64,000 bases of DNA from a virus (IMGVR_UViG_3300028585_000002:15337-79336), one strand, 5' to 3'; positions 32,496 through 60,728 are shown, counted from the first letter of the stretch. A program made the numbers and translations. Notes: a model not told the origin generated them from the letters alone.

Positions 32496-33062
32496 ATGAG
32501 TTTCTTAATCAACGGTATCGACACCGAAACCACCGGCGTAGACCAGGCGAAGGGCGACCGCATCATCGAGGTCGCGATCCTCACCTTCGACTTCGCCACC
32601 CGCAAGCTGGTTGACAAATACGTCCAGCGCATCGACCCCGAGCGCCCGATCGCCGCTGCGGCCCAGGCAGTTCACGGCATCGCCTACAACGATTTGGTGG
32701 GCATGCCGAAGTGGGATGCGGTGGCGCCGGAAGTGTCCCGCCGCTTGAGCATGGCCCCGGTCGCGGTGGCTCACAACATGAACTTCGACGGCCCGTTCAT
32801 CGCCGGCGAGCTGGCCCGCCTGGGTCTCGCAGTCCCGAACATCGAGCCGTTCTGCACGATGGAGAACGGGCGCTGGGCAACCTTCGACGGCAAGTCGCCC
32901 AAGCTCGGCGAGCTGTGCTTCGCGCTGGGCGTGCCCTACGACAAGTCCAAAGCCCACGCTGCTGACTACGACGTGATCGTGATGATGGCGTGCTTGTTCA
33001 AAGCGATCGACCGCGGCTTCTACAAGCTGCCCGAGATCGAGCTGGCGCGCGCAGCAGCATGA
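32496..33062 (+). CDS. DnaQ-like 3'-5' exonuclease (DEDDh; Pol III epsilon-like proofreading subunit)
   Basis: Exo I GIDTETTG, Exo II HNMNFD, Exo III HAADYDV. Confidence 0.8.
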   Translation: MSFLINGIDTETTGVDQAKGDRIIEVAILTFDFATRKLVDKYVQRIDPERPIAAAAQAVHGIAYNDLVGMPKWDAVAPEVSRRLSMAPVAVAHNMNFDGPFIAGELARLGLAVPNIEPFCTMENGRWATFDGKSPKLGELCFALGVPYDKSKAHAADYDVIVMMACLFKAIDRGFYKLPEIELARAAA

Positions 33063-36753: not shown

Positions 36754-37062
36754 CTACTTGGCCGCCAGCACCTCCAGCAGCCAGGTCTGCGCCATGTACT
36801 TGTTGCTGACAGGATCGTGCTGCTGTCCCGTAACCGAAATGAACTCGTCCTTCATGTAAAGCACCTCGGCCCTGTACAGGTCAATCCGCTCCGACCCGTC
36901 GCTGGGAAAGAGGCTCGCCATCATTACGTGAGAATTGAGCGCTCTTGCCATCGCTTGTGCCAGGACGAACTTCCCCTCCACTACCTTCTCGCGCTCCAGG
37001 CCCTCTCGCCACTTCGGTAGAGGTCGGCCTTCCTCGTACATAAACTGAGCGAATACTTTCAT
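36754..37062 (-). CDS. hypothetical protein (minus-strand cargo operon)
   Basis: ORF-track ORF convergent with flanking plus-strand genes. Confidence 0.4.
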   Translation of the reverse strand: MKVFAQFMYEEGRPLPKWREGLEREKVVEGKFVLAQAMARALNSHVMMASLFPSDGSERIDLYRAEVLYMKDEFISVTGQQHDPVSNKYMAQTWLLEVLAAK

Positions 37063-37228
37063 GGTGGAAATGCTGTATAAAAATACAGTATAGCACCCCT
37101 GCAGACGCCTTTTGTGATGCTGGGATGGACTAGGAAGTCCGTTGGTTAGTTACCAATACATAGGGATGGCGATCCAGCGGCGTTTGACCGGCAGGTTTCG
37201 ACCCAAAGCAGTCGTTCGTGAATAGTTC

Positions 37229-37723
37229 CTACAGGCCCAATTCAGACAGGCCAGGGTGATCATCCGGGCGCCGTCCGAGCGGCCAGTGGTATTTGCGTTC
37301 GGATGCCAGGATAGGCTTGTCATTGATGGAGGCATAGCGGTTTGTCATCAGGCCATCTGCATCAAATTCCCAGTTCTCATTTCCATATGAACGGAACCAA
37401 TTGCCGGAGTCGTCGTGCCACTCGTAGGCGTAGCGAACACCAATGCGATTCTCGGAGAATGCCCACAATTCTTTGATCAACCGGTAGTCAAGTTCTTTTG
37501 CCCATTTGCGCTCAAGCAAATGCTGCGCTTCGGACCGGCTTGTGACAAATTCGGCACGGTTGCGCCATTTTGTGTCCTCGGTGTACGCAAGCGCTACGCG
37601 CGCGGCGTCGCGGCTGTTCCAGCCGTCTTCAGCCAGGCGAACTTTTTCGGTAGCGCTGGCGAGAGTGAAAGGCGGCAATGGCGGACGGATGGCTGAGTTG
37701 GTGGGCATAATGCTTACTTTCAT
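37229..37723 (-). CDS. DUF1348 (NTF2/SnoaL-like fold) protein
   Basis: [13 protein letters not shown]...[38 protein letters not shown] matches the conserved DUF1348 core. Confidence 0.55.
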
Positions 37724-37740
37724 GGGTGAGTAGGTGCAAG

Positions 37741-38310
37741 TTAGTCGGGTAGCAAGGCAGCGGCGATACGCGCCGCGCGCGGCGCAGCTGCGCGGTCGCC
37801 GGTTACCAATGCGACGGTAATAGCGCCGTCGATAAGGATGAGAAGTTGCTGAGCCAGTTCGTCGGCTGGCACCTTTGCGATGCCCGCCTCATTGACGACT
37901 TGGCGCAAGTAGTGCAGCAGGCGCAGCTTGTGCGCTTTTGCCACTTGCCGGATGACGTCTTGAGCGTCGCCGGTTTCCCCGGCAGCATTGATGAAAGCGC
38001 AACCACGGAAGTCGGGCGTGTCGAACCAGGTTTCCAGTGCCTCGAACATTGCCTGAATCCGCAGCGGCAATGGCATGCCGGACGGCGACGCCGCTTCAAA
38101 CCAGGTCATCCAATGCGCGTCGCGCTGCATCAAGGCACCTGCTACTAACGCTTCTTTGGTCTCGAAGTAGCGATAGATAGTTTTGCGTGCCACTCCGGAC
38201 TCCTTGACGATGCGGTCCATCCCGGTGTTGGCAATGCCAGACTCGTAGATTAGTTGCTCGGTAGTGGCCAGCAGCCTGGCGCGGGTGTCAATGAGAGGTG
38301 GCGATTTCAT
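37741..38310 (-). CDS. TetR/AcrR-family transcriptional regulator
   Basis: N-terminal [39 protein letters not shown]; start taken as MKSPPL (ATG 38310) rather than the upstream TTG. Confidence 0.7.
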
Positions 38311-38321
38311 GTACAGATGGT

Positions 38322-38335
38322 AGAACGATCGTTCT
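38322..38335. promoter_or_regulatory. Perfect 14-bp palindrome AGAACGATCGTTCT in the tetR 5' region (candidate TetR operator)
   Basis: Read directly from the sequence. Confidence 0.45.
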
Positions 38336-38667
38336 CCATTTGTCAACCGATTTTATTCATATGCTTCATTGACCAAGGTCCGGTTTTGGCCGATTGCGGA
38401 AGTTCACCGCCGTTAGTGTAACTCATAAAAATCAGGGTTCCTGCAGCGCGGCATCGTCCTGTCGCCTGCCCTTCCCCGCCTGGTGGATCGCTTTGCGTGC
38501 CTGGCCTCAACCCGTAAAGTTCATACATCGACAACGCAGCAATAAAGCGAGATCGACGCAGCAAGGGGGTCGACAGTAGCCAAGCAAACAGCTTCTACCG
38601 CCGCAAACCGGTCTGCATACTACAGTCATCGCGACGTGCGAATTAACCAACAAATGGAGTTTTGAAC

Positions 38668-40343: not shown

Positions 40344-40616
40344 ATGGACCACAATATCAAACGCCGCAGCTTCAACAATACTGCCGCTGCCCTGATCGAA
40401 TACGACGCCGGCAAGGCAGCGCGCGACAGCGCCTGGAACAAGGTCGAGAAGAACCAGGATGTGGAAGCGTGCGAGGCGGCCGAGAAAGAGGCGTTACGCA
40501 AGGTGCAGGAGGCCTTCCACAAGGATACCCATGATATCAACTCTCTGGATCACTGCTACCTGGCCGACCTGGCGTTCATGCGCCGCATGACACTGCCCGA
40601 TCTCGTCGCCTGCTGA
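40344..40616 (+). CDS. hypothetical protein
   Basis: RBS AAGAGGAAccagATG. Confidence 0.35.
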   Translation: MDHNIKRRSFNNTAAALIEYDAGKAARDSAWNKVEKNQDVEACEAAEKEALRKVQEAFHKDTHDINSLDHCYLADLAFMRRMTLPDLVAC

Positions 40617-40677
40617 CGCCCTTCCCTTGCGCCCATTCGGGCGCCTTTTCTTGTCTACAAAACAGCCTTGGCCAGTA

Positions 40678-40770
40678 GGTGGATCGTTTTGAGTAGATGC
40701 GGTGGATCGTTTTGAGTAGTGACTGGTGGATCGTTTTGAGTAGCGTGGCCAGGTGGATCGTTTTGAGTAA
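40678..40770 (+). repeat. Iteron array I: 4 direct repeats of GGTGGATCGTTTTGAGTAG at 23-27 bp spacing
   Basis: Copies at 40678, 40701, 40725 and 40752, all in the same orientation. Confidence 0.8.
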
Positions 40771-40792
40771 AAGGCGAATTAGGCCTGCCTTT

Positions 40793-40820
40793 AAGGTTAA
40801 AGAGGGTTAAAGATGGTTAA
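40793..40820 (+). repeat. AT-rich tandem AGrGGTTAA x3 between the iteron arrays (candidate DNA-unwinding element)
   Basis: AAGGTTAAAGAGGGTTAAAGATGGTTAA. Confidence 0.45.
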
Positions 40821-40876
40821 CGGATGTGGACAACGACGCTAACTCCTTGATCTTTCTTGCGTTCTGGGAACACTCC

Positions 40877-41010
40877 GGTGGATCGTTTTGAGCAAACGGC
40901 GTTTCGAATTGAGCAAACGGTGTTTCGAATTGTGCCGGAGGTGGATCGTTTTGAGTTCCTATTCATCCTGCGGTGGATCGTTTTGACCTGTAGGTGGATC
41001 GTTTTGAGCT
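40877..41010 (+). repeat. Iteron array II: 4 further GGTGGATCGTTTTGA(G/C) copies plus a 21-bp direct repeat GAGCAAACGG(C/T)GTTTCGAATT x2 (40890-40931)
   Basis: Copies at 40877, 40940, 40972 and 40993; the last two overlap the 3' end of the Rep gene. Confidence 0.8.
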
Positions 41011-41995
41011 GGTGCGCCGGCCACAGCGCGCGTTACCTTCACAAGTTTTCCGCTACTGCGCGAATCGACCAATTCGCCTTTCGACAAAACGCCTGCACTC
41101 ACCAATTCAGCCAGGTAGCGCCGCATTACGCGCGGCGTATCCTTCTTGCTGATCTCCAGCCCCAGCATTTTTGCTAGTGACTCGGCGAGCACGTCATTAG
41201 GCTGACGGTGACTGCCGAAATATGACTGCAGGCGCCGTGCGCCTGCGGAAAGACCCTTTCTCGCTTCGAAGTCCACCAGTGTGAGATAGGACTCGGCGAA
41301 AAGTGTGACGAGTTTTTTGTTCAGCTTAATTTCCCAGGACAGATTGCCTTGGGGGATGCCATTTACGTCAGGTGATCCTCCAGTGAAGACCGGATCGCCA
41401 TCAATTAGCGACATCATCATGCCGCTCATTTTGTCGTTCGCCGTGAGCAGGCCCAGCTCCTCGCGCCGTTGGTATTCCTCCAGCTCGGCATACAGCTCAT
41501 CGAGCACTTCGGGGGCCGCTCCCGCCTCTCGAGCGCGTTCGCAGGCGAGGGCCTTGGTCAGCCGGCCGGAATAGACGGTAATGACGCCGCCCTTCAGGCG
41601 CTCGATGGTGCGGTAGATCTCGGTGTAGTAGTGCTGCATCTGCCGCTTGCCGGTCAGCTTGCATAGCTGGGCGTTGGAGACGCACACTGTCAGGTCGTCC
41701 ACCGACAGCTTGCGCGCCGCATGCACGAGGGCCAGGAACACGTCCTCGTCGTTGCTGCGCAGTTCTTCGCCTGTATAGGTCACGGCGCCGGTGCCTAAAA
41801 CGAATAGCTTCTCGTTCTTGTGCAGTCGTCGAGGCTTGCGCACATCGGCGCATGAGAACAGGGCCGAGCGCGCCAGCTCGTTCGCAATGGCTCGACGCTC
41901 CTCTGGCCAGAAGGCCATTTGGACCGGCGTGAACTTGCTCATTTGCGCAGCGGCGACGCGCTGCTTCAATTTGTCGGTGAGTGCCTTGGTTGCCA
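40959..41995 (-). CDS. iteron-type replication initiator protein (plasmid TrfA-like Rep)
   Basis: ~345 aa minus-strand gene directly abutting 8 iterons; C-terminus QNDPPTGQNDPP is the translation of two iterons. Family assignment by architecture and recalled similarity only. Start taken as MATKALTDKL. Confidence 0.5.
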
Positions 41996-42065
41996 TAAGA
42001 GTGCGCGGCTGAAAAAGAAAGCCAAGGATACGCCATGCGCACCTTACCGGCAAACTATCATTAGA

Positions 42066-42479
42066 TCATGAGGCGCTTACTTCTTTGGCGTATGCGCGCA
42101 GCGCCGCGACAGTCGCGCGGACCTCTTTTACGTCGAGCTGGAGGGACTTGATTATCAGGATAAGTTCTTGATCATCCTCCGACACGCCACAAGCGGAAGG
42201 AGGTGTGTAGAGGCGGTTCATTACATCCAATAGTTCAGGCTGGTACTCGCGCATGGCGAGCAGGAATAGCTCCGTCGGATCAGCCTTAAATTCTTCTGCA
42301 AATTGCTGAACTCGCACCAGTGGAAGTTTAGCTTTGCCGGCCAAGATCATCGACAACAAATTAGGTGGAATTCCAATAGCTTCCGCTATGGCAGCACGCG
42401 TCCGATGAGCAATTATTTTTTGAAGATGCCGGTCCAGATATGCCACGATCGACTCTGGATGATTGGGATTTTGTTTCAT
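42066..42479 (-). CDS. XRE-family HTH transcriptional regulator (paralog of 1220..1675), upstream of and co-oriented with Rep
   Basis: HTH RAAIAEAIGIPPNLLSMILAGKAKLP; shared C-terminal block with the left-end regulator. Confidence 0.6.
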   Translation of the reverse strand: MKQNPNHPESIVAYLDRHLQKIIAHRTRAAIAEAIGIPPNLLSMILAGKAKLPLVRVQQFAEEFKADPTELFLLAMREYQPELLDVMNRLYTPPSACGVSEDDQELILIIKSLQLDVKEVRATVAALRAYAKEVSAS

Positions 42480-42676
42480 ACATTAACTATAGGCAATATC
42501 CAGAAAGGGGTCAACGGGAGGTGTATTTTGCACCGTAAGTACCCATGCCTGTTGCATGAATCGAACGCTGTGATGTTGGAGTGACATTGTAATAGCAGCG
42601 TACCCATATCCCGTCCAGGGGCTGTAATCGCTTCTGGCCATCTCCTCGGCACGCATCTGTGGCTGCGCACATGGAG

Positions 42677-42723
42677 ATAAGTCATTGGTGACTTGTAGGT
42701 AAATCACGGATGACTTATCATGT
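42677..42723 (+). promoter_or_regulatory. Double palindrome ATAAGTCATtggTGACTTgtaggtaAATCACggaTGACTTATcATG in the divergent region between the XRE gene and plus-strand ORF 42736
   Basis: Read directly from the sequence. Confidence 0.5.
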
Positions 42724-47697: not shown

Positions 47698-48021
47698 ATG
47701 CTTTGGATCATCATGACAGACCACTCAGAGACGCAACAGCAGGGCCGAGTCAGCGCCGACACCCGAGCGCAGCAGGCAGCATGGGACGGTGCGCCAAGCG
47801 AGGCGCGCGATACCATCCGGTCGACGTGGGCCGAAATGTGCGAGACCGAATTCCGCCTGCTCGACGACGATGACCATGTCTGCTATGAAGGCGTGTGCCA
47901 TGATCTCGACAACCAGGACGGCGACAGCGCGTTCGAACCGCTGGACTGGGCCGAGGGCATTGTCGGCGCCACGACCATGGAATACCGTCTCAAGGGAGAG
48001 AGCGTATGGAAAATCCTGTGA
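47698..48021 (+). CDS. hypothetical protein
   Basis: RBS GGAGAGcaacATG. Confidence 0.35.
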   Translation: MLWIIMTDHSETQQQGRVSADTRAQQAAWDGAPSEARDTIRSTWAEMCETEFRLLDDDDHVCYEGVCHDLDNQDGDSAFEPLDWAEGIVGATTMEYRLKGESVWKIL

Positions 48022-48284
48022 TCGCCAAAGCGCCCGTCGGCATCATGGGCGAGACCCTGGCCAGGCAGTTCAAGACCGCCAAGTTCGACGACAAGATGCA
48101 CGCCGGCCGCAACCCGACGCTTCCTGCGCTGCCGACCGGACCGGTGCGCCTGCTCTTTCGCGGGATGGTCTCCAACGCGGTGCGCGGGCGGATCGAGGCA
48201 GTGTTCTCCTGTTACGCCTCGAGCGAGGAGAGCAGCTTCATCGGGCACTACTACTCCGACGCCCTGAAGGACTTCACGCTGTGA
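48006..48284 (+). CDS. hypothetical protein
   Basis: ORF-track ORF. Confidence 0.3.
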   Translation: MENPVIAKAPVGIMGETLARQFKTAKFDDKMHAGRNPTLPALPTGPVRLLFRGMVSNAVRGRIEAVFSCYASSEESSFIGHYYSDALKDFTL

Positions 48285-48664
48285 GCGCCGTCTTCGACAT
48301 CACCGATGAAATGGTGCGCCAGGCGATCGCCCTGCCCGACCCTGTTCAGGCCATCTTGAGCCTCATGGACCGGGTTGGTATGCGGGAGAGCCACTTTGAG
48401 ATCGACGCAGCCCAGCAGGATGCATGGGTGATCAGCGGGCCTCACGCGCGCATGGCGATACTGGTCTACTGGCGCACATTGGAGCAGCTACGCGAGCCTG
48501 AGCTGTGTTTCTAGGCTGACAACGATACGATTTCCAAAGCAGACTGTGCGTCGTGGTAATTGCCGCACTGCCGGCTGCTTCGTTTGGAGCAGTGGCCCTG
48601 ACGAACTTCCGCTTTCAGCCAAGAGCGGTAGTTCGCTCAGTCGGCAGCTGCTATTCCGATCTAA

Positions 48665-49156
48665 TCACTGAATAACGAATTTATTATCAACCAGTTTCAA
48701 AGTGTATTTGACTGATTTTGTTGGGCGGTGCGGCTCATCCTTGGGACCATAAGATATTCCTGTGAGCAAAAGCAGCCCCGTTTTAGTTGCCGTCATAGTC
48801 GTCAAAGCAACCATCTTTAATTCCGGAAATTTGTAGTCGATAACTACTGGATCAGCAGCAGGAGACCCAGCTTTTTCAACCACTGTGAAATTCGGCCCTA
48901 TCGTCCCGTTTCCTCCCGCACACCCGAGATCACCCTGCCAGAACACAACAAATTTCGCACCTAATCCATTCAATTCAGCGTCGCCTTTGTCAATGCGTAC
49001 AGCCTTGTACTGGGTAGGCTGGTCAGCGTTGTCTTCGAGCTGACACGCCACAGTTTCACTATATTTTTTCGCTAAGGCAGCAGCAGAGCGTTCATCCAAG
49101 GCATAAGCACTATAGGACATCGCAAAAAGGGTAACGCTAAGACATATGTTTTTCAT
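48665..49156 (-). CDS. secreted protein of unknown function (Sec signal peptide), in a low-GC island
   Basis: MKNICLSVTLFAMSYSAYA signal peptide; local GC about 45%; only minus-strand gene between 42.5 and 54.4 kb. Confidence 0.5.
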   Translation of the reverse strand: MKNICLSVTLFAMSYSAYALDERSAAALAKKYSETVACQLEDNADQPTQYKAVRIDKGDAELNGLGAKFVVFWQGDLGCAGGNGTIGPNFTVVEKAGSPAADPVVIDYKFPELKMVALTTMTATKTGLLLLTGISYGPKDEPHRPTKSVKYTLKLVDNKFVIQ

Positions 49157-49683
49157 AATATTTCTCGACCGGCTGATAAAGCTGAACACTGTAGTCCAAA
49201 TTTCCGTACGGAAACAGTAAATTCATGGAAGTGTTGCAATTTAGCAGTCCACTAAATTTCTACGACGCAGTGGTGGCTAATGACGGCACCGTGTCGCGGC
49301 CCTTCCCAGAATGCTCGTACAGCGTCCGGCGCCACTACTTCACGCGCCCAACTTCCTCGCAACCGACAAACAAAACAGGCCACTCACGCCTGTTTTCGTG
49401 TGAGATTTATCAGCCTTGGAAAAGATCAATTAAATCAATGGGTTACGCCAACACCAGTGCAGAGAAGTTGCTTGCCAAACGCTGGTCTCCTGGTGGGGCA
49501 GGTCAGCACAGAATACCCGCTCATCAATAGCGTCAGGCAAGGGCACCAGATCGACGTACACGCCCTTGGAATGACCTCGTCGATACCGTCGCACCACCCG
49601 AAACCCCGACGCCCTAGAAGCCCGATTTTGACCCCGGCATGCATAAGTGATCCTGGCCCGATCCGCGGTATTATTGCGATAAT

Positions 49684-49702
49684 CAGTCATCGGTGACATA
49701 TC
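49684..49702 (+). promoter_or_regulatory. Motif copy CAGTCATcggTGACATATC upstream of ORF 49719
   Basis: Read directly from the sequence. Confidence 0.35.
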
Positions 49703-49718
49703 AAGCAAGGAGCGAACA

Positions 49719-50063
49719 ATGGAACACAATCAGGGAACAACCATGCGCATTCATGGAGTGACGTGCCGACCAGCCGGGAAATTAGACATCGCGCTGTACC
49801 AGGACGTGACGCGCCCGGCAGTGGAGTGGGCGAACGAGAACCTGACGAAGGAGATGATCGACGAAGCACGCCCGCCGGTCGAGCTGATCACCCTGACGAA
49901 GAAGGCAAAGGCAGAGCTGGAGCGCCTGGGCTTCATGTACACGCCGATCGGGTTGTTTGTCCGCGATGAACCGGACATCTTGAAAGACAGTGACGAACAG
50001 CTCATCGCGGACGGGAAGAACAAAGCCGAGATCGTACTGGCTCGGATCATGCAGATGAAGTAG
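49719..50063 (+). CDS. hypothetical protein
   Basis: RBS AAGGAGcgaacaATG. Confidence 0.4.
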   Translation: MEHNQGTTMRIHGVTCRPAGKLDIALYQDVTRPAVEWANENLTKEMIDEARPPVELITLTKKAKAELERLGFMYTPIGLFVRDEPDILKDSDEQLIADGKNKAEIVLARIMQMK

Positions 50064-50272
50064 CACCGGCGCTCCGTGCGGGGTAAAGGCGCCTCACAAA
50101 AGTCAGTGGACAAGAACACGCCTGCTGGCGCACCAGGATTATAGCGCTGACAAGACTTATCACCGCCGGCACTCCCCTAAAGTATTTAAGTATTTAAGGG
50201 TTTAAGTTTTTACAGGTATGAAATACCTATAGAAAGGGGTGGACAGCCCCAAGCTCCAAGAGGAACACCGGA

Positions 50273-50752
50273 ATGGCCAAGAAAGCACCCATCCACTACA
50301 TCGCATTCCCGGACAAGAGCTGGATCGACGCCGAGGGATATGCCAACTACCCAAGCGAGCACCGGATCAAACTAGACGGCTGCGCCTGCATGCTCGAGAA
50401 GGACTTCAAGAGCGGCGCCTACCGGGACAACAAGTTCTGGAACCCGACACAGATCGGAAAGAGGATCAGCCTTCCGAAGATGCACTTCATCGTATGGAGA
50501 GTGAAGTACCAGACCGGCAGGACATCGGTAGCGGCCCAGGACAAGGACCAGTTCACGGCGTACCTCAAGAACGACCCTACCCACTTCGAAGGCGCGGCCT
50601 GTGTGCGAGCAGTGTCGATCGGACAGGCGGAAGCAATCGCCCAGCAGGACAGCGTCTGGAACCCGGTAGACGAACAGATCATCGAGCAGGCCCAGAAGAA
50701 GAGCAGGCAAGAGAGAGCCGCAAGGCGCAGTCACTACCCGGAAGTCTGGTGA
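50273..50752 (+). CDS. hypothetical protein
   Basis: RBS AGAGGAAcaccggaATG. Confidence 0.4.
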   Translation: MAKKAPIHYIAFPDKSWIDAEGYANYPSEHRIKLDGCACMLEKDFKSGAYRDNKFWNPTQIGKRISLPKMHFIVWRVKYQTGRTSVAAQDKDQFTAYLKNDPTHFEGAACVRAVSIGQAEAIAQQDSVWNPVDEQIIEQAQKKSRQERAARRSHYPEVW

Positions 50753-51155
50753 AACCGTATAGACACAAACAAGGCAATGCGGAATACCTCAAATACGGAA
50801 ATCTGCAAATCCTCAAAACCGTATAAAGGAAAGACATCGGAGACAAACAAGACGAGGAACAACGGAAAGACGAACAACCGGGAGGGAGAAGACGACACCT
50901 ATGCCTACGATCACATAGACATAGATGCCTGTAGGAAGTGAGCCTGACACACGTCACACAACACGTCGGACATCACAGAGCGGCACATGTAAGTTTTGCG
51001 TGGCTACGTATAGCACTCATCAATCCACGCCATTCCCCGGCAATCCTCATACCGCAGGCCTGATACCACGGCGCCAGGCCGCTCCCATAGAGGAAACGAC
51101 CAGGCCAGGCGACCTCCAGGCCATCGAACCGGCCACCAGGAGCAGGCCTGGCTCG

Positions 51156-51250
51156 TATAAGGGCGTCGCCAAGGATCTATAAGGGCACCTTACACATCGG
51201 ATCGAAATGTATAAGGTCGCATCCTGACTATACCCCGGAAATCTATAAGG
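51156..51250. repeat. Four direct copies of (C/T)NTATAAGG(G/T)C at 51156, 51178, 51210 and 51244 inside a 630-bp noncoding region
   Basis: Read directly; related TATAAAGG at 50822. Confidence 0.5.
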
Positions 51251-51387
51251 TCGAGGTTCTGCCACGGAGAAAACGATCTTTTGGATCGCCTTGGCCGCCC
51301 GACCAGGAGAGCTGCACCGAGCCACACGCACGCCTGACCTGGCTCTCTACCATACACATATCGACAACACAGCACAGGGAGCAAATC

Positions 51388-51723
51388 ATGATCACGCAAG
51401 CGCAGAAAGAGGTCTTACAGGTGGCCGGTTACTCGGTCGAAGACATGGGCGCTGAATGGGGCAAGGACTTCGCAGGGCAGTACCGCTGGATGAACGACAC
51501 GCACGAGCCAGGAGGCGGTGACGGGTTCGGCGTGATCCAGTACAGCATCGAGGCGGCATGGGACGACGCGCTGCAGTTCCAGGAGCAGGCTCTGGGCATC
51601 CCGGTGTTCGTGCCCGAGGACGACTGCATCAACGGCATTCACTCCTGGACGAGCGAAGTGGGCCTGCTGCCACCTGAGACCAAGTGCGCCTACTGCAACG
51701 AGCTGTACGGCCACCCGGACTGA
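51388..51723 (+). CDS. hypothetical protein
   Basis: RBS GGGAGcaaatcATG. Confidence 0.4.
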   Translation: MITQAQKEVLQVAGYSVEDMGAEWGKDFAGQYRWMNDTHEPGGGDGFGVIQYSIEAAWDDALQFQEQALGIPVFVPEDDCINGIHSWTSEVGLLPPETKCAYCNELYGHPD

Positions 51724-52200
51724 TCGCCAGCACCAGGCGCGCGCTGTGCAGGACCGGCAGCGGCGCCGAAGGGCTATTCCGGCTTTCACGCAAGACGTGA
51801 GCTTCGGCGACGGTCTATTCCGGATGCATCGTGCGCGCACGCCGCCGCAGGCGCTCCGGTCTGGCCCAGGATCTTCCAAGGATCCGCCTGGCCAGCGCCG
51901 ACCACCTCCCAGGCGACGCCTCGGCAGCTGCAGGCAACCTGGTCGGCGAGATGCACCGGTCCGGTCACACGCCTGCATGTGACCGTCATACTGCTAACTC
52001 ACCACTGACTTAAAGGGCAGCACCATGAGCACCACCATCAATTTCGTCGACTACGAAGAAGGAACCGACGAGTTCAACACGCAGATCATGCATGAGGGCG
52101 TCGAGATCGCAGCGATGATCCCCGCCTGCTTGATCCCGAAGCTGACCGGCGAGAGCGGTGAGCCTACCGAGTTCATCGGGCGCACGTTCCTGGTGTAAGG

Positions 52201-52335
52201 GCAGGGTGGGCAGGCGCCCACCAGGCCGCAGGCCACCTTCAGGCCTAGGCAAGTCCGACAGGCCATCAGGCTGCAGGCCGGCAGCAGGCCAGGCCAAGGC
52301 GTATCCGAGGCCACCAGGCCAGGCGAGCGGACCGC
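52201..52335. repeat. Degenerate microsatellite-like array of about 15 CAGGCC / CCAGGCC units
   Basis: Read directly; a similar short array lies at 51095-51150. Confidence 0.45.
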
Positions 52336-52450
52336 CCTGAAGGCGAACATCACAGCGCCACCCAGCGCCAGCCACATGCCTGTTTCTGGTTGAGAACATG
52401 ACGTTACTGCAGCACGACGCAGCAGCGACCAACCTCACAGAGAGAGCATC

Positions 52451-52642
52451 ATGAACGTCACCATCGCCGCCATCGCCCGCAACCTGAACCAGCGCACCGC
52501 CCGCGCATCGGCAGCGTTATTACCCTTTGCGATCACCTCGCACCTGGTCCTGGACAACGACACCGGCGCCGTCGTCGGCACGCAGCGCAGCATGACGGTC
52601 AAGGGCCGCCTGTTCAACACCTCGATCACGCCAGTGCAGTAA
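52451..52642 (+). CDS. hypothetical small protein
   Basis: RBS GAGAGAGcatcATG; weak. Confidence 0.25.
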   Translation: MNVTIAAIARNLNQRTARASAALLPFAITSHLVLDNDTGAVVGTQRSMTVKGRLFNTSITPVQ

Positions 52643-53035
52643 TGAGCGCCGACCTGATCACCCAGTACCGGGCCAAGCTGCGACGCATGGGACGCTGGAT
52701 GCGACCACGCTACCTGCGCAATCAGGGCGTCGCCTTCAATGACGCCTACTTCATCATCTTCGGGCGCGCGCCACGCTTATAGCGACGCTGCCTGACCGAG
52801 CACACAAGAGGGCGCCTGCGGGCGTCCTTTCTCTTGCGCCACACCTTGCCGAGGATGCGCCAAGGCGACGCCGTGGACCAGCGCCAGCACGCCCACCACG
52901 AGAGCAGGACGGCACCAGGGGCGCCAGCTTCGGCGACGGTATTTTGGCGTTTTCTTTGCTCGCCAGCTTCGGCGACGAAACTTTGGGGCTTTCTCCGGGT
53001 TCGCTCGCCGAGGATGCGCCGGGCCGCCTGTCCGG

Positions 53036-53105
53036 CCCAGGAATGCGCCTGCACCTCGCCATGGCGAAAACCGACCCAGGAATGCGCCTGCATCCCGCCA
53101 TGGCG
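53036..53105. repeat. Tandem ~31-bp repeat CCCAGGAATGCGCCTGCA(C/T)C(T/C)CGCCATGGCG x2
   Basis: Read directly; the same region has GAGGATGCGCC x2 and CAGCTTCGGCGACG x2 (a third copy is at 51797). Confidence 0.6.
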
Positions 53106-53225
53106 CAACTGAATAACTGTGCAGGCGGGCGCGCACGCGACTACAGGTCCGATCAGGGTCCGTCAAGCGATCCGCTGGAATACAACACAAAATCTCACGC
53201 AAAAATAATTCACGCAAACCCTTGT

Positions 53226-53250
53226 TAAGTCAGTCGTGACTGACTATAAT
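53226..53250 (+). promoter_or_regulatory. Recurrent cassette TAAGTCAGtcgTGACTGACTATAAT upstream of the AT-rich gene (about 150-nt leader)
   Basis: Read directly from the sequence. Confidence 0.55.
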
Positions 53251-53398
53251 TACTACATCGAATCACACAACGCTGATTCAAAAGCAGGTAGCAGCAAAGC
53301 TCTTTAACAATTTAGCGTGTCAAGTAATAGGGCAAAGTCCCGCAGATGAAACGACACAAAACACAATTTCAATTCACTACATATTAAGAGGTTACAAA

Positions 53399-54070
53399 AT
53401 GGGTAAAGCAATGAAAGCATCGACGATCGTCAACAAACTCGCAGCGTCGGTATCGAACCGGGTTCAATTATTAGTTGACGCGGGCGAACACGTCGCAAGC
53501 GAATTCAAAAAGATCAACGAACTGTATCAAGCTGATGGTAAGCATCGCGGTTCGTTTGAACGTGCAGTCGAAACGGTGAAAGATCAGATTGATTTTGATC
53601 TCTTACTGAAAATCATCGGTAAAGCAAAGCAAGATGGTGCGAACGATAGCAACTACGTGCAAGCGAAAGTGATCGAGAAAATCAACAAACTGATTTTCGC
53701 ACTTGCGAATAAAGACCTGCGTGCTACCGATAACCATACTCGCTCGCTCATGGTCAATGCGATGCTGAACGGGAAACTGTCGAGCAAAGCAGCGTTTGCA
53801 ACGCTGGTTAAGGTCGAATGGGGTGACGAAATCAGCGAAATGCTGCGCGAGCGTAACAACTACACAGCAGGGACGGGCAGCACGCAACTGTCGAGCACGA
53901 AAGAAACAATGCGCATTCTCGGTCTGAGCGCTAACGCGAAGGGCACGAAAAACGCTGATTTTACTTTCACCGAAGAAGGGCAAGCGCTGTTCTGTGAGCG
54001 CTTCGAAAAGATCGCAGCGCTTGTGCAAAGCGCTGAACAGATCGAAGAAGAACTGAGCACTGAAGAATAA
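53399..54070 (+). CDS. hypothetical protein encoded by an atypical low-GC (about 48%) gene with AAA/GAA-biased codon usage
   Basis: RBS AAGAGGttacaaaATG; codon usage differs sharply from flanking genes (Lys AAA, Glu GAA rather than AAG/GAG); stop TAA is part of a motif copy, followed by a hairpin. Confidence 0.55.
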   Translation: MGKAMKASTIVNKLAASVSNRVQLLVDAGEHVASEFKKINELYQADGKHRGSFERAVETVKDQIDFDLLLKIIGKAKQDGANDSNYVQAKVIEKINKLIFALANKDLRATDNHTRSLMVNAMLNGKLSSKAAFATLVKVEWGDEISEMLRERNNYTAGTGSTQLSSTKETMRILGLSANAKGTKNADFTFTEEGQALFCERFEKIAALVQSAEQIEEELSTEE

Positions 54071-55017: not shown

Positions 55018-55650
55018 TTGAAAGTCATCGCATTCCTGAATCAGAAGGGCGGCGTCGGAAAGACCACGCTGGCCGTTGGCATTGCCACCTTCCTCTCCCG
55101 CCTGGGCCACCGCGTTCTGCTCATCGACGCCGACCCCCAAGGCAGTGCCCTGGACTGGGCGGCTGCGCGCGCTGGCGATCCCATGTTCCCAGTAGTGGGT
55201 CTGCCGCGCGCGACCATCCACCGTGAGATTGACCAGATCGGCGCCGACTACGACTACGTGGTCATTGACGGCCCGCCGCGCGTGACGGACCTGGCCCGCA
55301 GCGCCATCATGGCCGCCCACCTGGTCGTGGTGCCGGTACAGCCTTCGCCGTACGACGTGTGGGCCGCCGAGGAGATCATCAAGCTGATCGAGGAAGCGCG
55401 CATCTACAAGGAAAGCCTCAAAGCTGTGTTTGTGGTGAATCGCAAAATCGCAAATACGGCGATCGGTCGGGACGTGGGGGAGATTTTGAACCAGTACGCA
55501 CTGCCAACCCTGGCCGCGACAGTCACCCAGCGCGTCATCTTTGCCGAGGCAGCTGCGGAGGGCAAGGCGGTCTTTGAGATCGACCCGGAAGGTCCGGCAA
55601 CCCTGGAGATGGCCGAGCTGACGGCCGAGATCGAGAAGGTGCTGGGATGA
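55018..55650 (+). CDS. parA: ParA/ParF-type partition ATPase (small type Ib ParA)
   Basis: Deviant Walker A NQKGGVGKTT; LLIDADPQGS; ~210 aa. TTG start after GAGGAG (only in-frame ATG is far upstream at 54892). Upstream TTACCGgaTTACCG repeats. Confidence 0.75.
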   Translation: MKVIAFLNQKGGVGKTTLAVGIATFLSRLGHRVLLIDADPQGSALDWAAARAGDPMFPVVGLPRATIHREIDQIGADYDYVVIDGPPRVTDLARSAIMAAHLVVVPVQPSPYDVWAAEEIIKLIEEARIYKESLKAVFVVNRKIANTAIGRDVGEILNQYALPTLAATVTQRVIFAEAAAEGKAVFEIDPEGPATLEMAELTAEIEKVLG

Positions 55651-55928
55651 ACAAGAAGATCCAATTTGGCCCTCGACCAGGGCACGGCGCGGCCCCTGCG
55701 CCAGACCCGGAAGCGTGGATCCGGGACCGGGGTGGCGTCGACGAAGCTGCAGCGCCGGCACCGGCGCCAGAACCTGAAGCGCCTGCTGAGCCGACCAAGC
55801 GCTTGACGTTCGACATCCCGGCGAGCCTGCACGCCGCGGTCAAGTCGACTTGCGCCATGGAGGGTCGGAAGATGAACGAGGAGATCATCAAGCTGCTCGA
55901 GGCCCGGTTCAGGCCAAAGCAGTCGTGA
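55647..55928 (+). CDS. ParG-like ribbon-helix-helix partition protein (centromere-binding partner of ParA)
   Basis: ATGA overlap with parA; Pro/Ala-rich flexible N-terminus; C-terminal KRLTFDIPASLHAAVKSTCAMEGRKMNEEIIKLLE RHH-like. Confidence 0.45.
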   Translation: MNKKIQFGPRPGHGAAPAPDPEAWIRDRGGVDEAAAPAPAPEPEAPAEPTKRLTFDIPASLHAAVKSTCAMEGRKMNEEIIKLLEARFRPKQS

Positions 55929-56861: not shown

Positions 56862-57043
56862 TCGGCCCTCAGTTGCTGCTGAAATTCGACGCCATCCCGC
56901 GGAATGTCGCTGCGGTTCTTCCACAGTCCCTGCGCGGCCTGCAGCGCAGCCAGACGGCGCCGGCGTGGCGAATCCTGCAGGGTAACGACCGACGACTTAT
57001 CAGCCTGCTCCACGTCTGGATTTCTCTGTTTGGCGGCACCCAT
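56852..57043 (-). CDS. VapB-like antitoxin (small, positioned upstream of vapC with overlapping stop/start)
   Basis: RBS GGGAGGgcgacATG on the minus strand; 64 aa; TGA overlaps the vapC ATG. Confidence 0.45.
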   Translation of the reverse strand: MGAAKQRNPDVEQADKSSVVTLQDSPRRRRLAALQAAQGLWKNRSDIPRDGVEFQQQLRAEWR

Positions 57044-57132
57044 GTCGCCCTCCCTTACTTGAAGTGATGATTCAGTGTACCGCATCCGATGCCCGCTGTC
57101 GTCGTCGGCCAGCAGGCGCGTTGACGTTTCCG

Positions 57133-57462
57133 CTACGGGCGCATGGGTACGCGGAACTGCTCGAGGCTGCCGCCGGCGGCGAGTGCCTGCTGTAGCCAAG
57201 CCGGCCGCTTCCCGCGACCGCCCCAGGTGTTCTCCGCGTTGGCAGGATCTTGGTAAACATTCCCCGGCGTCGTCGCCTTGCGAGACTTGCGTTTCTCGTC
57301 CATCGCCAACAGCGTATGCAGCGGTATGCCGAACTGGTGGGCGAGGCTGTATATCTGGTCGATCGCAGCCTGACGCTCATGCTTCTCCCGCTTCTCCGCT
57401 TCCTTCGACACCTGATCCAGCAACTCACGCAGCTGGCCAAGGTTCAGTCCCGATAAGTCCAT
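57133..57462 (-). CDS. H-NS-family nucleoid-associated protein (xenogeneic silencer-like)
   Basis: C-terminal DNA-binding signature NTWGGRGKRPAWL; N-terminal coiled coil; 109 aa. Confidence 0.55.
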   Translation of the reverse strand: MDLSGLNLGQLRELLDQVSKEAEKREKHERQAAIDQIYSLAHQFGIPLHTLLAMDEKRKSRKATTPGNVYQDPANAENTWGGRGKRPAWLQQALAAGGSLEQFRVPMRP

Positions 57463-57630
57463 TTCGCTTCCTCTAAAGTAAGTGTTACGTGATTATCATA
57501 GTGCAGATCACACTTATTTTGCCGGACACGGCCATTTTTCAACGTGCCATACATAACAGAAGCCGCCGTAGCTCATATACTTGTCGGACCAGCGTCACTT
57601 AACGTCATTTAACTGGATCAAAGGGTCTCC

Positions 57631-58323: not shown

Positions 58324-58396
58324 ATCACCAGGCCAGCTCCGTGGGCGTGGCCGGCGCTGACGACCGGTTCGAACGACTGCGGTCGAAGATCGGAGG

Positions 58397-60711: not shown

Positions 60712-60728
60712 ACGCCAGGTGGCCGTCG

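What the first reader, a model, noticed from the sequence alone, without database searches (positions are those of the whole stretch)
40678..42479. Iteron-type origin (8 x 19-bp repeats in two arrays split by an AT-rich GGTTAA tract) abutting a TrfA-like Rep gene and an XRE regulator
Four GGTGGATCGTTTTGAGTAG copies (40678-40770) and four more (40877-41010) flank an AT-rich tandem AGrGGTTAA x3 (40793-40820) and a 21-bp direct repeat x2 (40890-40931). This is the classic layout of an iteron-controlled plasmid or phage origin: initiator binding sites plus a DNA-unwinding element. The adjacent minus-strand gene (40959-41995) encodes a ~345-aa protein whose C-terminus (QNDPP-TG-QNDPP) is translated from iterons. 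It is preceded in the same orientation by an XRE regulator paralogous to the one at the left end. The window also has ParA (55018-55650, with TTACCG direct repeats upstream) and an RHH ParG-like gene (55647-55928), VapBC, HicA, an RHH protein and an H-NS-like protein. Together these suggest the element is maintained as an extrachromosomal prophage (a phage-plasmid). It carries this alongside a full T4-like replication and recombination toolkit.
Basis: partly seen in the sequence, partly recalled or inferred. Interest (0 to 1): 0.72.

Follow-up and report, generated by a model that had tools for sequence, protein, structure and literature searches.

The report
TrfA iteron origin of a phage-plasmid
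A 2-kb plasmid-type replication cassette (a small repressor-like gene, a TrfA initiator gene and its repeated binding sites) sits inside a 111-kb tailed-phage genome related to the SSU5 and Acinetobacter phage-plasmids and most likely lets the phage persist as a plasmid. It is a clean example of a known kind of element, not a new one.

Summary
Eight same-strand copies of GGTGGATCGTTTTGAG (seven exact, one with one mismatch) lie at 40678-41008, where shuffles give 0.67 matches. They flank a 10-bp-period GGTTAA x3 tract and overlap the 3' end of a 345-aa minus-strand gene. That gene is a true TrfA: Pfam PF07042 scores 69.5 bits against a cut-off of 22, it is 51% identical to a Herbaspirillum plasmid TrfA, and its model has an RctB/Rep-like fold.

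Comparison of about 20 homologous loci shows a conserved origin layout. Iterons start inside the trfA 3' end and run in 21/32-bp phase. An IHF-like site, a DnaA box and three TTTAACC repeats follow, then one or more distal iterons. Its '21-bp repeats' are degenerate iterons.

The host genome is a ~111.5-kb, circularly assembling siphophage of the SSU5/AB phage-plasmid supergroup. Its capsid protein is 75% identical to those of Acinetobacter phage-plasmids. It also carries ParA, an RHH protein and toxin-antitoxin genes.

The XRE-trfA-oriV cassette is an indel. It is present in a 113-kb contig of a Massilia isolate, absent at the same site in two closer backbone relatives, and a Duganella relative is integrated at a tRNA gene instead.

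Plasmid maintenance itself is inferred, not shown.

The parts
40629..40644 (+). Terminator-like hairpin plus T-run that ends the converging + strand gene (40344-40616). It marks the left boundary of the origin region.
   Evidence: GCGCCCATTCGGGCGC CTTTTCTTGT
40678..40767 (+). Distal iteron array: four exact copies of GGTGGATCGTTTTGAG starting at 40678, 40701, 40725 and 40752 (spacing 23, 24, 27 bp). Proposed copy-control (handcuffing) sites.
   Evidence: The homologous position holds six copies in the Massilia contig and a single copy in most other clade members.
40795..40821 (-). Proposed DNA-unwinding element. Three heptamers at an exact 10-bp period (GGTTAAA, GGTTAAA, GGTTAAC; on the trfA-sense strand GTTAACC n3 TTTAACC n3 TTTAACC). 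39% G+C.
   Evidence: The block is conserved in 12 homologous origins whose iterons differ, including the Herbaspirillum plasmid. It is analogous to the four 13-mers TAAACnTTnTTTT of RK2 oriV (PMC4081077).
40825..40833 (-). DnaA box TTGTCCACA, one mismatch from TTATCCACA, 3 bp from the heptamer repeats.
   Evidence: The same position holds TTATCCACA or TTGTCCACA in most homologous origins. A single box is not significant alone; its conserved position is the evidence.
40840..40852 (-). IHF-like site GATCAAGGAGTTA (consensus WATCAAnnnnTTR, one mismatch at W), between the proximal iterons and the DnaA box.
   Evidence: The alignment of 12 origins gives the conserved columns ATCAA n4 TTA. The IHF consensus is from general knowledge, and binding was not tested.
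40877..41008 (+). Proximal iteron array of six units in helical phase. Starts are 40877, 40898 (degenerate, 11/16), 40919 (degenerate, 11/16), 40940, 40972 (15/16) and 40993, spaced 21, 21, 21, 32 and 21 bp. The last two lie inside the trfA coding sequence.
   Evidence: The same 21/32-bp rhythm, starting inside the trfA 3' end, is seen in L006 and L011-L016.
40959..41996 (-). trfA: 345-aa replication initiator of the TrfA family, with an iteron-encoded C-terminal tail QNDPPTGQNDPPQDE.
   Evidence: Pfam PF07042, E = 3.3e-19, 69.5 bits against a cut-off of 22. tblastn finds 514 plasmid records, the best 51% identical. The Massilia TrfA is 80% identical, with dN/dS 0.116. The AlphaFold model has pLDDT 79.9, and its best PDB match is RctB domains 2-3, E = 2.7e-9.
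42066..42479 (-). 137-aa XRE/HTH_3-like regulator, the first gene of the putative xre-trfA operon.
   Evidence: HTH_3 E = 1.6e-4 (22.1 bits, just under the cut-off of 23) and PHROG transcriptional-regulator families at E = 2e-6. It is 75% identical and syntenic in the Massilia contig, with dN/dS 0.11. A paralogue lies at 1220-1675.
42486..42514 (-). Promoter-like site TTGACC-17-TATAGT. The xre ATG begins 7 nt after the -10 hexamer and there is no Shine-Dalgarno sequence, which suggests a leaderless mRNA.
   Evidence: Both hexamers and the start codon are conserved in the Massilia contig while the spacer diverged.
42677..42718 (.). Conserved inverted repeat ATAAGTCAT n24 ATGACTTAT, with a third AAGTCA between the arms, just upstream of the divergent + strand gene at 42736. 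Candidate operator of the XRE protein.
   Evidence: The alignment with the Massilia contig shows these blocks invariant in an otherwise diverged spacer. The function is inferred.
55018..55928 (+). Partition module: a 210-aa ParA ATPase (55018-55650) and a 93-aa weak Arc/RHH-like partner (55647-55928). No convincing centromere repeats were found.
   Evidence: Pfam AAA_31/CbiA and PHROG 164 'ParA-like partition protein', E = 4.8e-53. The RHH match has E = 9.4e-5. There are only two TTACCG copies upstream.

Best explanation
The segment 40.63-42.52 kb is a self-contained plasmid-type theta replicon (xre-trfA-oriV) carried by a temperate siphophage of the SSU5/AB phage-plasmid supergroup. It most likely replicates the ~111.5-kb phage genome as a low-copy plasmid prophage in an Oxalobacteraceae host, probably Massilia.

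Proposed mechanism:
1. The xre-trfA operon is transcribed from a conserved, probably leaderless promoter at 42514-42486.
2. TrfA monomers bind the six in-phase proximal iterons (40877-41008), which begin inside the trfA 3' end.
3. An IHF-type bend at 40840-52 and host DnaA at the box at 40825-33 help melt the adjacent three-heptamer unwinding element at 40795-821.
4. By analogy with RK2, TrfA also holds one strand of the melted element, and the host helicase is loaded.
5. The four distal iterons (40678-40767) pair with other iterons through TrfA (handcuffing) and limit copy number.
6. ParA with its RHH partner, and the VapC/HicA toxin systems, stabilise inheritance.

Shown here:
- The repeats, their phase and their conservation.
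- TrfA family membership.
- The conserved origin layout across the clade.
- Purifying selection on trfA and xre.
- Phage structural genes on the same circularly assembling molecule.
- The indel nature of the cassette.

Inferred: protein-DNA binding, unwinding, handcuffing, the role of XRE, and the plasmid state itself.
For: **The repeats are not chance.** There are 8 copies against 0.67 expected, all in one orientation.

**TrfA membership.** Pfam gives 69.5 bits against a cut-off of 22. There are 514 homologous plasmid trfA genes. The model matches RctB domains 2-3, the WH-like domains of an iteron-type initiator.

**The layout is conserved.** Iterons inside the trfA 3' end at 21/32-bp spacing, ATCAAn4TTA, TTrTCCACA, three TTTAACC repeats and then distal iteron(s) recur in about 12 loci. 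Their iteron sequences differ with TrfA divergence. One of the loci is a bona fide conjugative-type Herbaspirillum plasmid.

**Selection.** Between the window and the Massilia contig, synonymous sites are saturated (dS 1.12) and dN/dS is 0.116. The iteron 14-mer is nevertheless exact 8 and 13 times, and the promoter hexamers are kept.

**Phage identity.**
- TerL, portal, scaffold and capsid genes lie on a contig 100% identical to the window.
- The capsid protein is 75% identical to Acinetobacter AB-type phage-plasmids and 57% to SSU5.
- The exonuclease has relatives on many 104-118-kb contigs.

**Plasmid-like state.**
- An ENA contig of 111,606 bp is circularly permuted relative to the window with a 141-bp end overlap, and a Logan contig spans its ends.
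- The Massilia sp. TN1-12 isolate assembly holds the syntenic element as a separate 112,962-bp contig that starts mid-gene.

**The cassette is accessory.** It is absent from the same site in backbone relatives L028 and L029 and in Nickievirus. It therefore cannot be the backbone's essential lytic origin.

**Other maintenance genes.** ParA, an RHH protein, PIN, HicA and H-NS genes are in the window.
Against: - No experiment or read-level data show an extrachromosomal state. A circular assembly is equally expected from a terminally redundant, circularly permuted virion genome.
- A tyrosine recombinase (PF00589; PHROG 'integrase') lies 1-2 kb left of the window. A collinear relative is integrated at tRNA-Ser in a Duganella chromosome. 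An integrative lifestyle exists in the lineage.
- ParA is 13 kb from the origin and no centromere repeats were found.
- NCBIfam gave no hit for the TrfA, and the XRE HTH_3 score is just below Pfam's cut-off.
- The DnaA box and the IHF-like site each carry one mismatch, and alone they would occur by chance.
Confidence: 0.72

Rival explanations
1. The cassette is the phage's lytic (early theta) origin, used like lambda O/ori-lambda to start vegetative replication rather than to maintain a plasmid prophage.
For: - As in lambda, initiator-binding repeats lie inside the initiator gene next to an AT-rich tract (PMC4081077 lists ori-lambda among origins with repeated AT-rich motifs).
- No other initiator was recognised in the window.
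- trfA transcription runs into the origin with no terminator before 40644.
Against: - The closest backbone relatives (L028, L029), Nickievirus and the Duganella prophage lack the cassette at this site yet keep the DnaE, gp32, UvsX and SbcCD replication-recombination genes.
- The cassette sits on the opposite strand from the surrounding lytic gene array, behind its own XRE gene and promoter.
- No TrfA is found in 50,697 deposited phage genomes, while its nearest complete relatives are plasmids.
Confidence: 0.15
2. The phage is an integrative temperate phage that uses the tyrosine recombinase, and the TrfA cassette is a captured plasmid fragment that is a passenger, redundant or only transiently used.
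For: - An integrase-family gene lies next to the window.
- A related backbone is integrated at tRNA-Ser in Duganella.
- Exonuclease relatives occur on contigs of 1.29 and 1.7 Mb.
Against: - trfA and xre are under strong purifying selection, and the iterons are exact in two lineages with saturated synonymous divergence.
- ParA/RHH and toxin-antitoxin genes accompany the cassette.
- The recombinase has only the catalytic domain and is unrelated to the Duganella P4-type integrase, E = 0.17. It could be a dimer resolvase, as Cre is in P1 (general knowledge).
- The Massilia copy is a stand-alone contig of genome length.
Confidence: 0.09
3. The repeats are not TrfA sites. They would instead be a partition centromere, a DnaA-titrating array (each repeat contains ATCCAC, the core of a DnaA box) or XRE operators.
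For: - The reverse complement of the iteron, CGATCCACC, matches 6 of 9 positions of TTATCCACA (read).
- No centromere was found next to parA.
Against: - The repeat sequence changes with TrfA divergence. For example it is CTAAAAACGACACAC with the 65%-identical TrfA and GAAAACGACACA or TCAAAATGACTA in others. Position, phase and overlap with the trfA 3' end are kept, also in loci without this ParA or XRE.
- The canonical DnaA box is a separate, conserved element.
- Candidate XRE operators are a different motif at 42677-42718.
Confidence: 0.04

Closest known systems
RK2/RP4 (IncP-1) oriV with TrfA
   Same: - The initiator belongs to the same Pfam family, PF07042.
- Direct iterons of about 17-19 bp lie roughly two helical turns apart.
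- Host DnaA box(es) are present.
- The AT-rich unwinding element has a short repeated motif. RK2 has four 13-mers, TAAACnTTnTTTT, bound by TrfA as single-stranded DNA (PMC4081077).
- RK2 also has a second iteron cluster that lowers copy number (general knowledge).
- TrfA architecture is a DNA-binding domain plus WH1 and WH2 (PMC8034659). This fits the RctB-like model found here.
   Different: - TrfA identity to enterobacterial-type plasmid TrfAs is only about 27%.
- The iteron sequence differs.
- oriV abuts and overlaps the trfA 3' end.
- One DnaA box and an IHF-like site lie between the iterons and the unwinding element. In RK2, four boxes lie on the far side of the iterons (figure legend).
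- There are three 10-bp-period heptamers instead of four 13-mers.
- There is no evidence for two TrfA forms from internal starts.
- The carrier is a phage, not a conjugative plasmid.
TrfA/oriV of Oxalobacteraceae plasmids (Herbaspirillum huttiense ZXN111 plasmid NZ_CP103873; Massilia sp. MP_M2, Herbaspirillum sp. RV1423 contigs)
   Same: - TrfA is 50-58% identical.
- Iterons begin at the trfA stop codon.
- The same ATCAAn4TTA, TTATCCACA and three TTAAC(C/T) block follows.
   Different: - The Herbaspirillum replicon is an 89-kb plasmid with type-F transfer genes and ParAB upstream of trfA.
- Its iterons occur in both orientations.
- Its unwinding block is followed by a GC-rich stretch instead of a second iteron array.
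SSU5-supercommunity and AB-type (Acinetobacter) phage-plasmids
   Same: - Genome size of about 100-125 kb.
- The major capsid protein is 75% identical to AB plasmids and 57% to SSU5.
- DnaE, CobS/CobT, RNR, recombination genes and the DnaQ-like exonuclease are shared (group descriptions in PMC7969092 and PMC12977533).
- The general rule of a conserved phage core with variable plasmid genes applies.
   Different: - The described groups are typed mainly as IncFIB replicons. This element uses TrfA.
- The host is probably a betaproteobacterium (Massilia), not Enterobacterales or Acinetobacter.
- Replication and partition genes lie 13 kb apart.
- A formal gene-repertoire relatedness (wGRR) was not computed.
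Bacteriophage lambda O protein and ori-lambda
   Same: Initiator-binding direct repeats lie within the initiator's own coding sequence, next to an AT-rich region. Transcription of the initiator gene runs into the origin.
   Different: The O protein is not a TrfA-family protein. Lambda's repeats lie mid-gene and serve lytic replication. Here only the last two iterons are coding, and the cassette is dispensable for the backbone.
P1 plasmid-prophage replicon (RepA, incC/incA iterons, ParAB, Cre-lox)
   Same: - It is a phage maintained as a plasmid through an iteron-controlled replicon.
- It has two iteron arrays, one in the origin and one for copy control.
- It has a partition system, addiction modules and a tyrosine recombinase that resolves dimers (general knowledge; P1 group).
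   Different: - RepA of P1 belongs to a different initiator family.
- P1's arrays flank repA rather than the unwinding element.
- P1 is a myovirus with an unrelated backbone.

Membership tests
TrfA family of plasmid replication initiators (Pfam PF07042) | The sequence matches the family HMM above the curated gathering score. | tested here: met
   69.5 bits against a cut-off of 22, E = 3.3e-19, in two stretches. All 59 close homologues carry PF07042. NCBIfam gave no hit.
TrfA family of plasmid replication initiators (Pfam PF07042) | Near full-length homology to genes annotated trfA on plasmids. | tested here: met
   tblastn finds 514 plasmid records, 205 of them covering at least 80% of the query. 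The best is 51% identical, from Herbaspirillum huttiense.
TrfA family of plasmid replication initiators (Pfam PF07042) | Rep-type fold with tandem winged-helix domains behind an N-terminal DNA-binding region (PMC8034659). | tested here: met
   The model has pLDDT 79.9 and pTM 0.76. Foldseek's best PDB hits are RctB domains 2-3, E = 2.7e-9, TM 0.55-0.67. describes these domains as WH-like. A sequence-profile search of the PDB found nothing.
TrfA family of plasmid replication initiators (Pfam PF07042) | Sequence-specific binding to its iterons and support of replication. | not testable with these tools
   The only evidence is indirect. The iteron sequence covaries with TrfA divergence across loci.
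Iteron-controlled theta origin | Three or more direct repeats of about 17-22 bp, in one orientation, in helical phase, next to the rep gene. | tested here: met
   There are 8 strong and 2 degenerate copies. The proximal array is spaced 21, 21, 21, 32 and 21 bp.
Iteron-controlled theta origin | An AT-rich unwinding element with short repeats, and host-factor sites (DnaA box, IHF), adjacent to the iterons. | tested here: met
   The tract at 40795-40821 is 39% G+C with three heptamers. The DnaA box is at 40825-33 and the IHF-like site at 40840-52. The positions are conserved in 12 origins.
Iteron-controlled theta origin | Autonomous replication of the cloned rep-plus-origin fragment. | not testable with these tools
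   This needs a cloning experiment.
Phage-plasmid (as defined by Pfeifer et al. 2021) | Phage structural and packaging genes together with plasmid replication and partition genes on one replicon. | tested here: met
   TerL, portal, scaffold and major head genes lie on a contig 100% identical to the window. The window holds TrfA with iterons and ParA.
Phage-plasmid (as defined by Pfeifer et al. 2021) | Extrachromosomal maintenance during lysogeny. | tested here: inconclusive
   In favour: the assemblies are circularly permuted with a 141-bp overlap, and the Massilia isolate holds a stand-alone 112,962-bp contig. Against: a tyrosine recombinase is present, and a relative is integrated in Duganella.
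SSU5/AB phage-plasmid supergroup | A shared persistent core of structural and recombination genes. | tested here: met
   The capsid protein is 75% identical to AB-type plasmids and 57% to SSU5, with homologues in 954 plasmid records. DnaE is 36-38% identical to Klebsiella SSU5-like elements. The exonuclease is 65-66% identical to A. baumannii proteins. wGRR and tyPPing typing were not run.
SSU5/AB phage-plasmid supergroup | An IncFIB-type replicon, typical of the described enterobacterial groups. | tested here: not met
   The initiator here is TrfA. The IncFIB typing of the SSU5 supercommunity comes from PMC7969092. The element is therefore a relative with a different replicon, not a member of the typed groups.

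The most novel reading that the evidence does not exclude
The 2.1-kb xre-trfA-oriV unit may be a portable 'plasmidisation' cassette that decides the lysogeny mode of one phage backbone. Oxalobacteraceae relatives carry three alternatives: this cassette, a 27%-identical TrfA placed with ParA next to cobT, or a P4-type integrase at tRNA-Ser.

In this reading the leaderless XRE gene acts as the prophage repressor and is co-transcribed with trfA. Repressor level and plasmid copy number would then be coupled. trfA transcription and translation reading through the first iterons would feed back on origin firing.
Probability: 0.25. Interest if true: 0.55.

Novelty: new member of a known kind. Interest (0 to 1): 0.35.

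Why it matters
The element extends the SSU5/AB phage-plasmid supergroup to soil or root betaproteobacteria (Massilia). It also extends it to a replicon type, TrfA, that I did not find reported for phage-plasmids in the papers searched. TrfA is absent from 50,697 deposited phage genomes.

It gives a compact, sequence-defined origin layout for a whole TrfA clade: iterons, an IHF-like site, a DnaA box and three TTTAACC repeats. This could serve as a replicon for genetics in Oxalobacteraceae and for testing TrfA binding to single-stranded DNA.

One phage backbone is seen with three alternative lysogeny modules. That is a natural comparison set for studying how phages switch between integration and plasmid maintenance. 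None of this overturns current understanding.

Tried and rejected
**Searches that found nothing or little**
- blastn of the region against phages found nothing, and against plasmids found one short hit. The cassette has no close DNA relative in the curated collections.
- The IMG/VR scan with the single protein found nothing. It succeeded only with the alignment.
- NCBIfam gave no TrfA hit.
- The profile search of PDB sequences gave nothing.
- Rfam and tRNA scans of the window were empty.
- Look-ups with mechanically called TTG starts failed.

**Ideas tested and dropped**
- The flanking genes (352 aa and 144 aa) have too few phage relatives for synteny with isolate phages. The Nickievirus region only shows a one-strand array without the cassette.
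- I looked for centromere repeats around parA. There are only two TTACCG copies and nothing else convincing.
- I looked for an iteron-like operator in the xre-trfA promoter, which would allow TrfA autoregulation. None exists within 3 mismatches.
- I considered that the repeats are DnaA-box arrays or a centromere. I rejected this because of the covariation with TrfA.
- I considered that the AB-type or SSU5 phage-plasmids already use a TrfA. The divergent TrfA of L018 hits Burkholderia and other plasmids. No Acinetobacter or Klebsiella phage-plasmid appears among the records listed. The full hit lists were not intersected.
- GATC inside every iteron looked like a Dam/SeqA link. However, GATC is about twice over-represented across the whole window, so I make no specific claim.
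Full report
**Observation**

The 16-bp core GGTGGATCGTTTTGAG occurs eight times between 40678 and 41008, all on the + strand. Seven copies are exact and the one at 40972 has one mismatch. The rest of the 64-kb window holds only three matches with up to 3 mismatches. Dinucleotide shuffles give a mean of 0.67 matches and a maximum of 4.

The left array starts at 40678, 40701, 40725 and 40752. The right array starts at 40877, 40940, 40972 and 40993. The '21-bp direct repeat x2' (40890-40931) consists of two degenerate iterons, 11 of 16 matches each, starting at 40898 and 40919. With them, the right array becomes six units spaced 21, 21, 21, 32 and 21 bp. That is two or three helical turns, so all units face the same side of the helix.

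Between the arrays, GGTTAA recurs three times at an exact 10-bp period (40795, 40805, 40815). This tract is 39% G+C in a 61% G+C genome.

The minus-strand ORF runs 40959-41996, 345 aa from the ATG that homologues share. Its last residues, AQNDPPTGQNDPPQDE, are read from two iterons. The upstream gene at 42066-42479 (-) is a weak HTH_3/XRE protein. It is paralogous to the gene at 1220-1675.

**The initiator**

The 345-aa protein matches Pfam TrfA at 69.5 bits against a gathering score of 22. tblastn finds it in 514 PLSDB plasmids. Most of these are conjugative and annotated trfA. The best hit is 51% identical, on an 89-kb Herbaspirillum huttiense plasmid, and enterobacterial plasmids are about 27% identical. 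It finds no match in 50,697 deposited phage genomes.

An AlphaFold model built on 20 homologues has pLDDT 79.9. Its only significant PDB neighbours are domains 2-3 of RctB, E = 2.7e-9. The TrfA literature describes these as the winged-helix-like domains of an iteron-type initiator (PMC8034659). Family membership is therefore solid.

**The origin, by comparison**

The large protein database gives 59 close TrfA relatives. Fetching their loci and scanning IMG/VR and GTDB genomes added more. Together they yield about 20 homologous origins, and they share one layout. Read in the trfA sense, it runs as follows:

1. Iterons begin 20-65 nt before the trfA stop codon. This is why many clade members end in ...QND.
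2. Five to eight iterons continue at 21/32-bp spacing.
3. A block follows that is conserved independently of iteron sequence: ATCAA-n4-TTA, TT(A/G)TCCACA, AGC, GTTAACC-n3/4-TTTAACC-n3/4-TTTAACC, TTAAA.
4. At least one further iteron lies beyond the block.

ATCAAn4TTA fits the IHF consensus WATCAAnnnnTTR. That consensus is general knowledge, and binding was not tested. TTrTCCACA is a DnaA box. In the window these elements are at 40840-40852 and 40825-40833.

The iteron sequence itself changes with TrfA divergence:
- CTCAAAACGATCCACC in the window and in the 80%-identical Massilia copy.
- CTAAAAACGACACAC with the 65%-identical TrfA.
- GAAAACGACACA, GAATCGACAC and TCAAAATGACTA in others.

This covariation is what initiator-binding sites should show. 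It argues against a centromere or a DnaA-titration role.

The Herbaspirillum conjugative-type plasmid has the same IHF, DnaA and three-TTAAC block, followed by a GC-rich stretch. The phage's origin is therefore a plasmid-type oriV.

The three-heptamer element parallels the four 13-mers (TAAACnTTnTTTT) of the RK2 unwinding element. TrfA binds those as single-stranded DNA, and all of them are needed for origin activity (PMC4081077).

**Selection**

Between the window and the Massilia contig, TrfA has dS 1.12 (saturated) and dN/dS 0.116. XRE has dN/dS 0.11. The iteron 14-mer is nevertheless exact 8 times in the window and 13 times in the Massilia contig, while the spacers differ.

The promoter-like TTGACC-17-TATAGT (42514-42486) and the xre start codon are also conserved in an otherwise diverged spacer. 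The ATG lies 7 nt after the -10 hexamer and has no Shine-Dalgarno sequence, which suggests a leaderless transcript. This is an inference.

A conserved inverted repeat, ATAAGTCAT-n24-ATGACTTAT (42677-42718), sits in front of the divergent + strand genes. It is a candidate XRE operator.

**What carries the cassette**

The window is 100% identical to pieces of an ENA metagenome contig of 111,606 bp and to Logan contigs of run SRR8466254. The two coordinate mappings onto the ENA contig differ by 111,465, which equals 111,606 minus 141. The contig's ends therefore overlap by k = 141. They fall inside the thyX-like gene near window position 26,342. Both the window and a Logan contig read straight through that point. 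The genome thus assembles as a ~111.5-kb circle. This fits either a circular replicon or a circularly permuted virion genome.

PHROG and Pfam annotation shows the following genes in the window:
- a DnaE-type polymerase and a DnaQ-like exonuclease;
- a gp32-like SSB, a UvsX/RecA-like recombinase, SbcCD-like and RuvC-like nucleases, and a UvsW-like helicase;
- RNR, ThyX and MazG;
- CobS/CobT and a sigma-like factor.

Just right of the window lie the terminase, portal, scaffold and major head protein genes.

The head protein is 75% identical to those of ~110-kb Acinetobacter baumannii plasmids (the AB-type phage-plasmids). It is 57% identical to SSU5 and 63% to Stenotrophomonas siphophages. The exonuclease has relatives on dozens of 104-118-kb contigs. 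The element therefore belongs to the SSU5/AB supergroup of siphovirus phage-plasmids (PMC7969092 and PMC12977533).

Maintenance genes in the window include ParA (55018-55650) with a weak RHH partner, a PIN toxin, a HicA-like gene and an H-NS-like gene. The proposed TTACCG centromere is only two copies.

**The cassette is an indel**

- **Present.** A 112,962-bp stand-alone contig of the Massilia sp. TN1-12 isolate assembly is syntenic around the cassette. It has XRE at 75% identity, TrfA at 80%, the same iteron, and flanking genes at 46-86%.
- **Absent.** Two metagenomic relatives with closer backbone genes (exonuclease 78% and 84% identical) have the same flanking genes in the same order, all on one strand. 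They have no xre, trfA or iterons between them. The Nickievirus region also lacks the cassette.
- **Different module, different place.** Three IMG/VR contigs with the same backbone (DnaE 51-59%, CobS 47-70%) carry a TrfA that is only 26-27% identical. It sits together with XRE, ParA and an RHH gene beside cobT.
- **Integrated.** In Duganella sp. FT27W a collinear relative of window 24.4-34.8 kb ends at a P4-type integrase next to tRNA-Ser and housekeeping genes. It is an integrated prophage.

One phage backbone is thus found with alternative lysogeny modules. [quoted passage not shown]

**Mechanism and its rivals**

The best reading (confidence about 0.7) is a functional TrfA/iteron theta replicon that maintains the prophage as a plasmid. 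It would work much as RK2 oriV does. TrfA binds the phased proximal iterons. IHF and DnaA assist melting of the three-heptamer element. The host helicase is loaded. The distal iterons provide handcuffing control.

Binding, melting, handcuffing and the plasmid state are all inferred.

The rivals are:
- **A lambda-O-like lytic origin (0.15).** It is weakened because the cassette is dispensable for the backbone.
- **A passenger cassette in an integrative phage (0.09).** The tyrosine recombinase 1-2 kb left of the window keeps this alive. That protein has only a catalytic-domain match and is unrelated to the Duganella integrase, so it could be a dimer resolvase.
- **Repeats with another function (0.04).**

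**Novelty**

Nothing here lies outside known categories. It is a textbook iteron origin with a TrfA-family initiator, on a member of a known phage-plasmid supergroup.

The new elements are:
- The combination. No TrfA-type phage-plasmid is described in the papers I could search, and none is in the deposited phage collection. However, 12 IMG/VR viral contigs carry TrfA relatives.
- The probable host clade.
- The explicit origin layout of this TrfA clade.

I rate it a new member of a known kind, with interest 0.35.

Noticed in passing
L004 438-1499 (about 1.1-2.1 kb left of window position 1); also L004 2542-3696: A 353-aa tyrosine recombinase lies just outside the window, with only a catalytic-domain PF00589 match and a PHROG 'integrase' match. 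A GmrSD_N-like gene and a 40-46% G+C island are next to it. The recombinase could be an integrase or a plasmid-dimer resolvase.
   Followed up: partly
L031 (Duganella sp. FT27W, WHIV01000002.1 96499-117047): A collinear relative of window 24.4-34.8 kb (41-71% aa identity) is integrated in a 1.29-Mb chromosomal contig. It ends at a P4-type integrase beside tRNA-Ser(gct), aspartokinase, tilS and accA. No trfA is present in the 10 kb seen.
   Followed up: yes
L018, L019, L020 (IMG/VR contigs of 111, 24 and 116 kb): These have the same phage backbone (DnaE 51-59%, CobS 47-70%) but a very divergent TrfA (26-27%). It is clustered with XRE, ParA and an RHH gene next to cobT. In L018 the iteron-like repeats appear upstream of trfA (PQNPI...PHNPI in the upstream reading frame).
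   Followed up: partly
L007, L009, L010 (JGI/IMG-VR contigs, 44-98 kb): A 65%-identical TrfA with a different iteron sits in an unrelated, lambdoid-looking context (lambda-P-like, YbcO, DUF1064, HNH and H-NS genes). This TrfA clade has therefore entered more than one kind of phage-like element.
   Followed up: no
window 42477-42514 and 42677-42718: The xre gene appears leaderless, since its ATG lies 7 nt after a conserved -10 hexamer. A conserved inverted repeat, ATAAGTCAT-n24-ATGACTTAT, lies before the divergent gene at 42736. Together they look like a small repressor-operator switch.
   Followed up: partly
window 42027-42043 (- strand), between xre and trfA: A terminator-like hairpin (7 pairs plus a T-rich tail) lies in the 69-bp gap between xre and trfA. 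It is a possible attenuator that sets the XRE:TrfA ratio. trfA also lacks an obvious Shine-Dalgarno sequence.
   Followed up: no
window 7422-10874 and 32496-33062: The replicative polymerase is a 1150-aa DnaE (Pol III alpha, with a PHP domain) plus a separate DnaQ-like exonuclease. It is not a T4-type family B polymerase. The best isolate-phage relatives are Rhizobium RHEph10-like phages at 44% identity.
   Followed up: yes
window 36754-38346 (- strand): This is a second opposite-strand island encoding a TetR regulator, a DUF1348 protein and a 102-aa protein. It is absent from relatives L028 and L029 and looks like an accessory (moron) insertion.
   Followed up: partly
L028 17071-17949 and L029 14212-15111: GIY-YIG/NUMOD3 homing-endonuclease genes sit between the homologues of the 352-aa and 114-aa genes in both cassette-free relatives. 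The window has none there.
   Followed up: no
whole window; iterons at 40678-41008: GATC occurs 463 times in 64 kb, about twice the number expected from base composition. Every iteron and the IHF-like site contain one. No methyltransferase was looked for.
   Followed up: no
window 62514-63182: A 222-aa ParB_N-domain protein (PHROG 723) lies next to the UvsW-like helicase, 7 kb from parA. It is more likely a ParB-like nuclease or DNA-binding protein of the phage core than the partner of ParA.
   Followed up: no
window 48000-54000 and 57000-61000: These stretches have lower G+C (50-56%) and short ORFs on mixed strands. One is a 223-aa ORF at 53399-54070 with no family match. They are probably accessory islands.
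   Followed up: no
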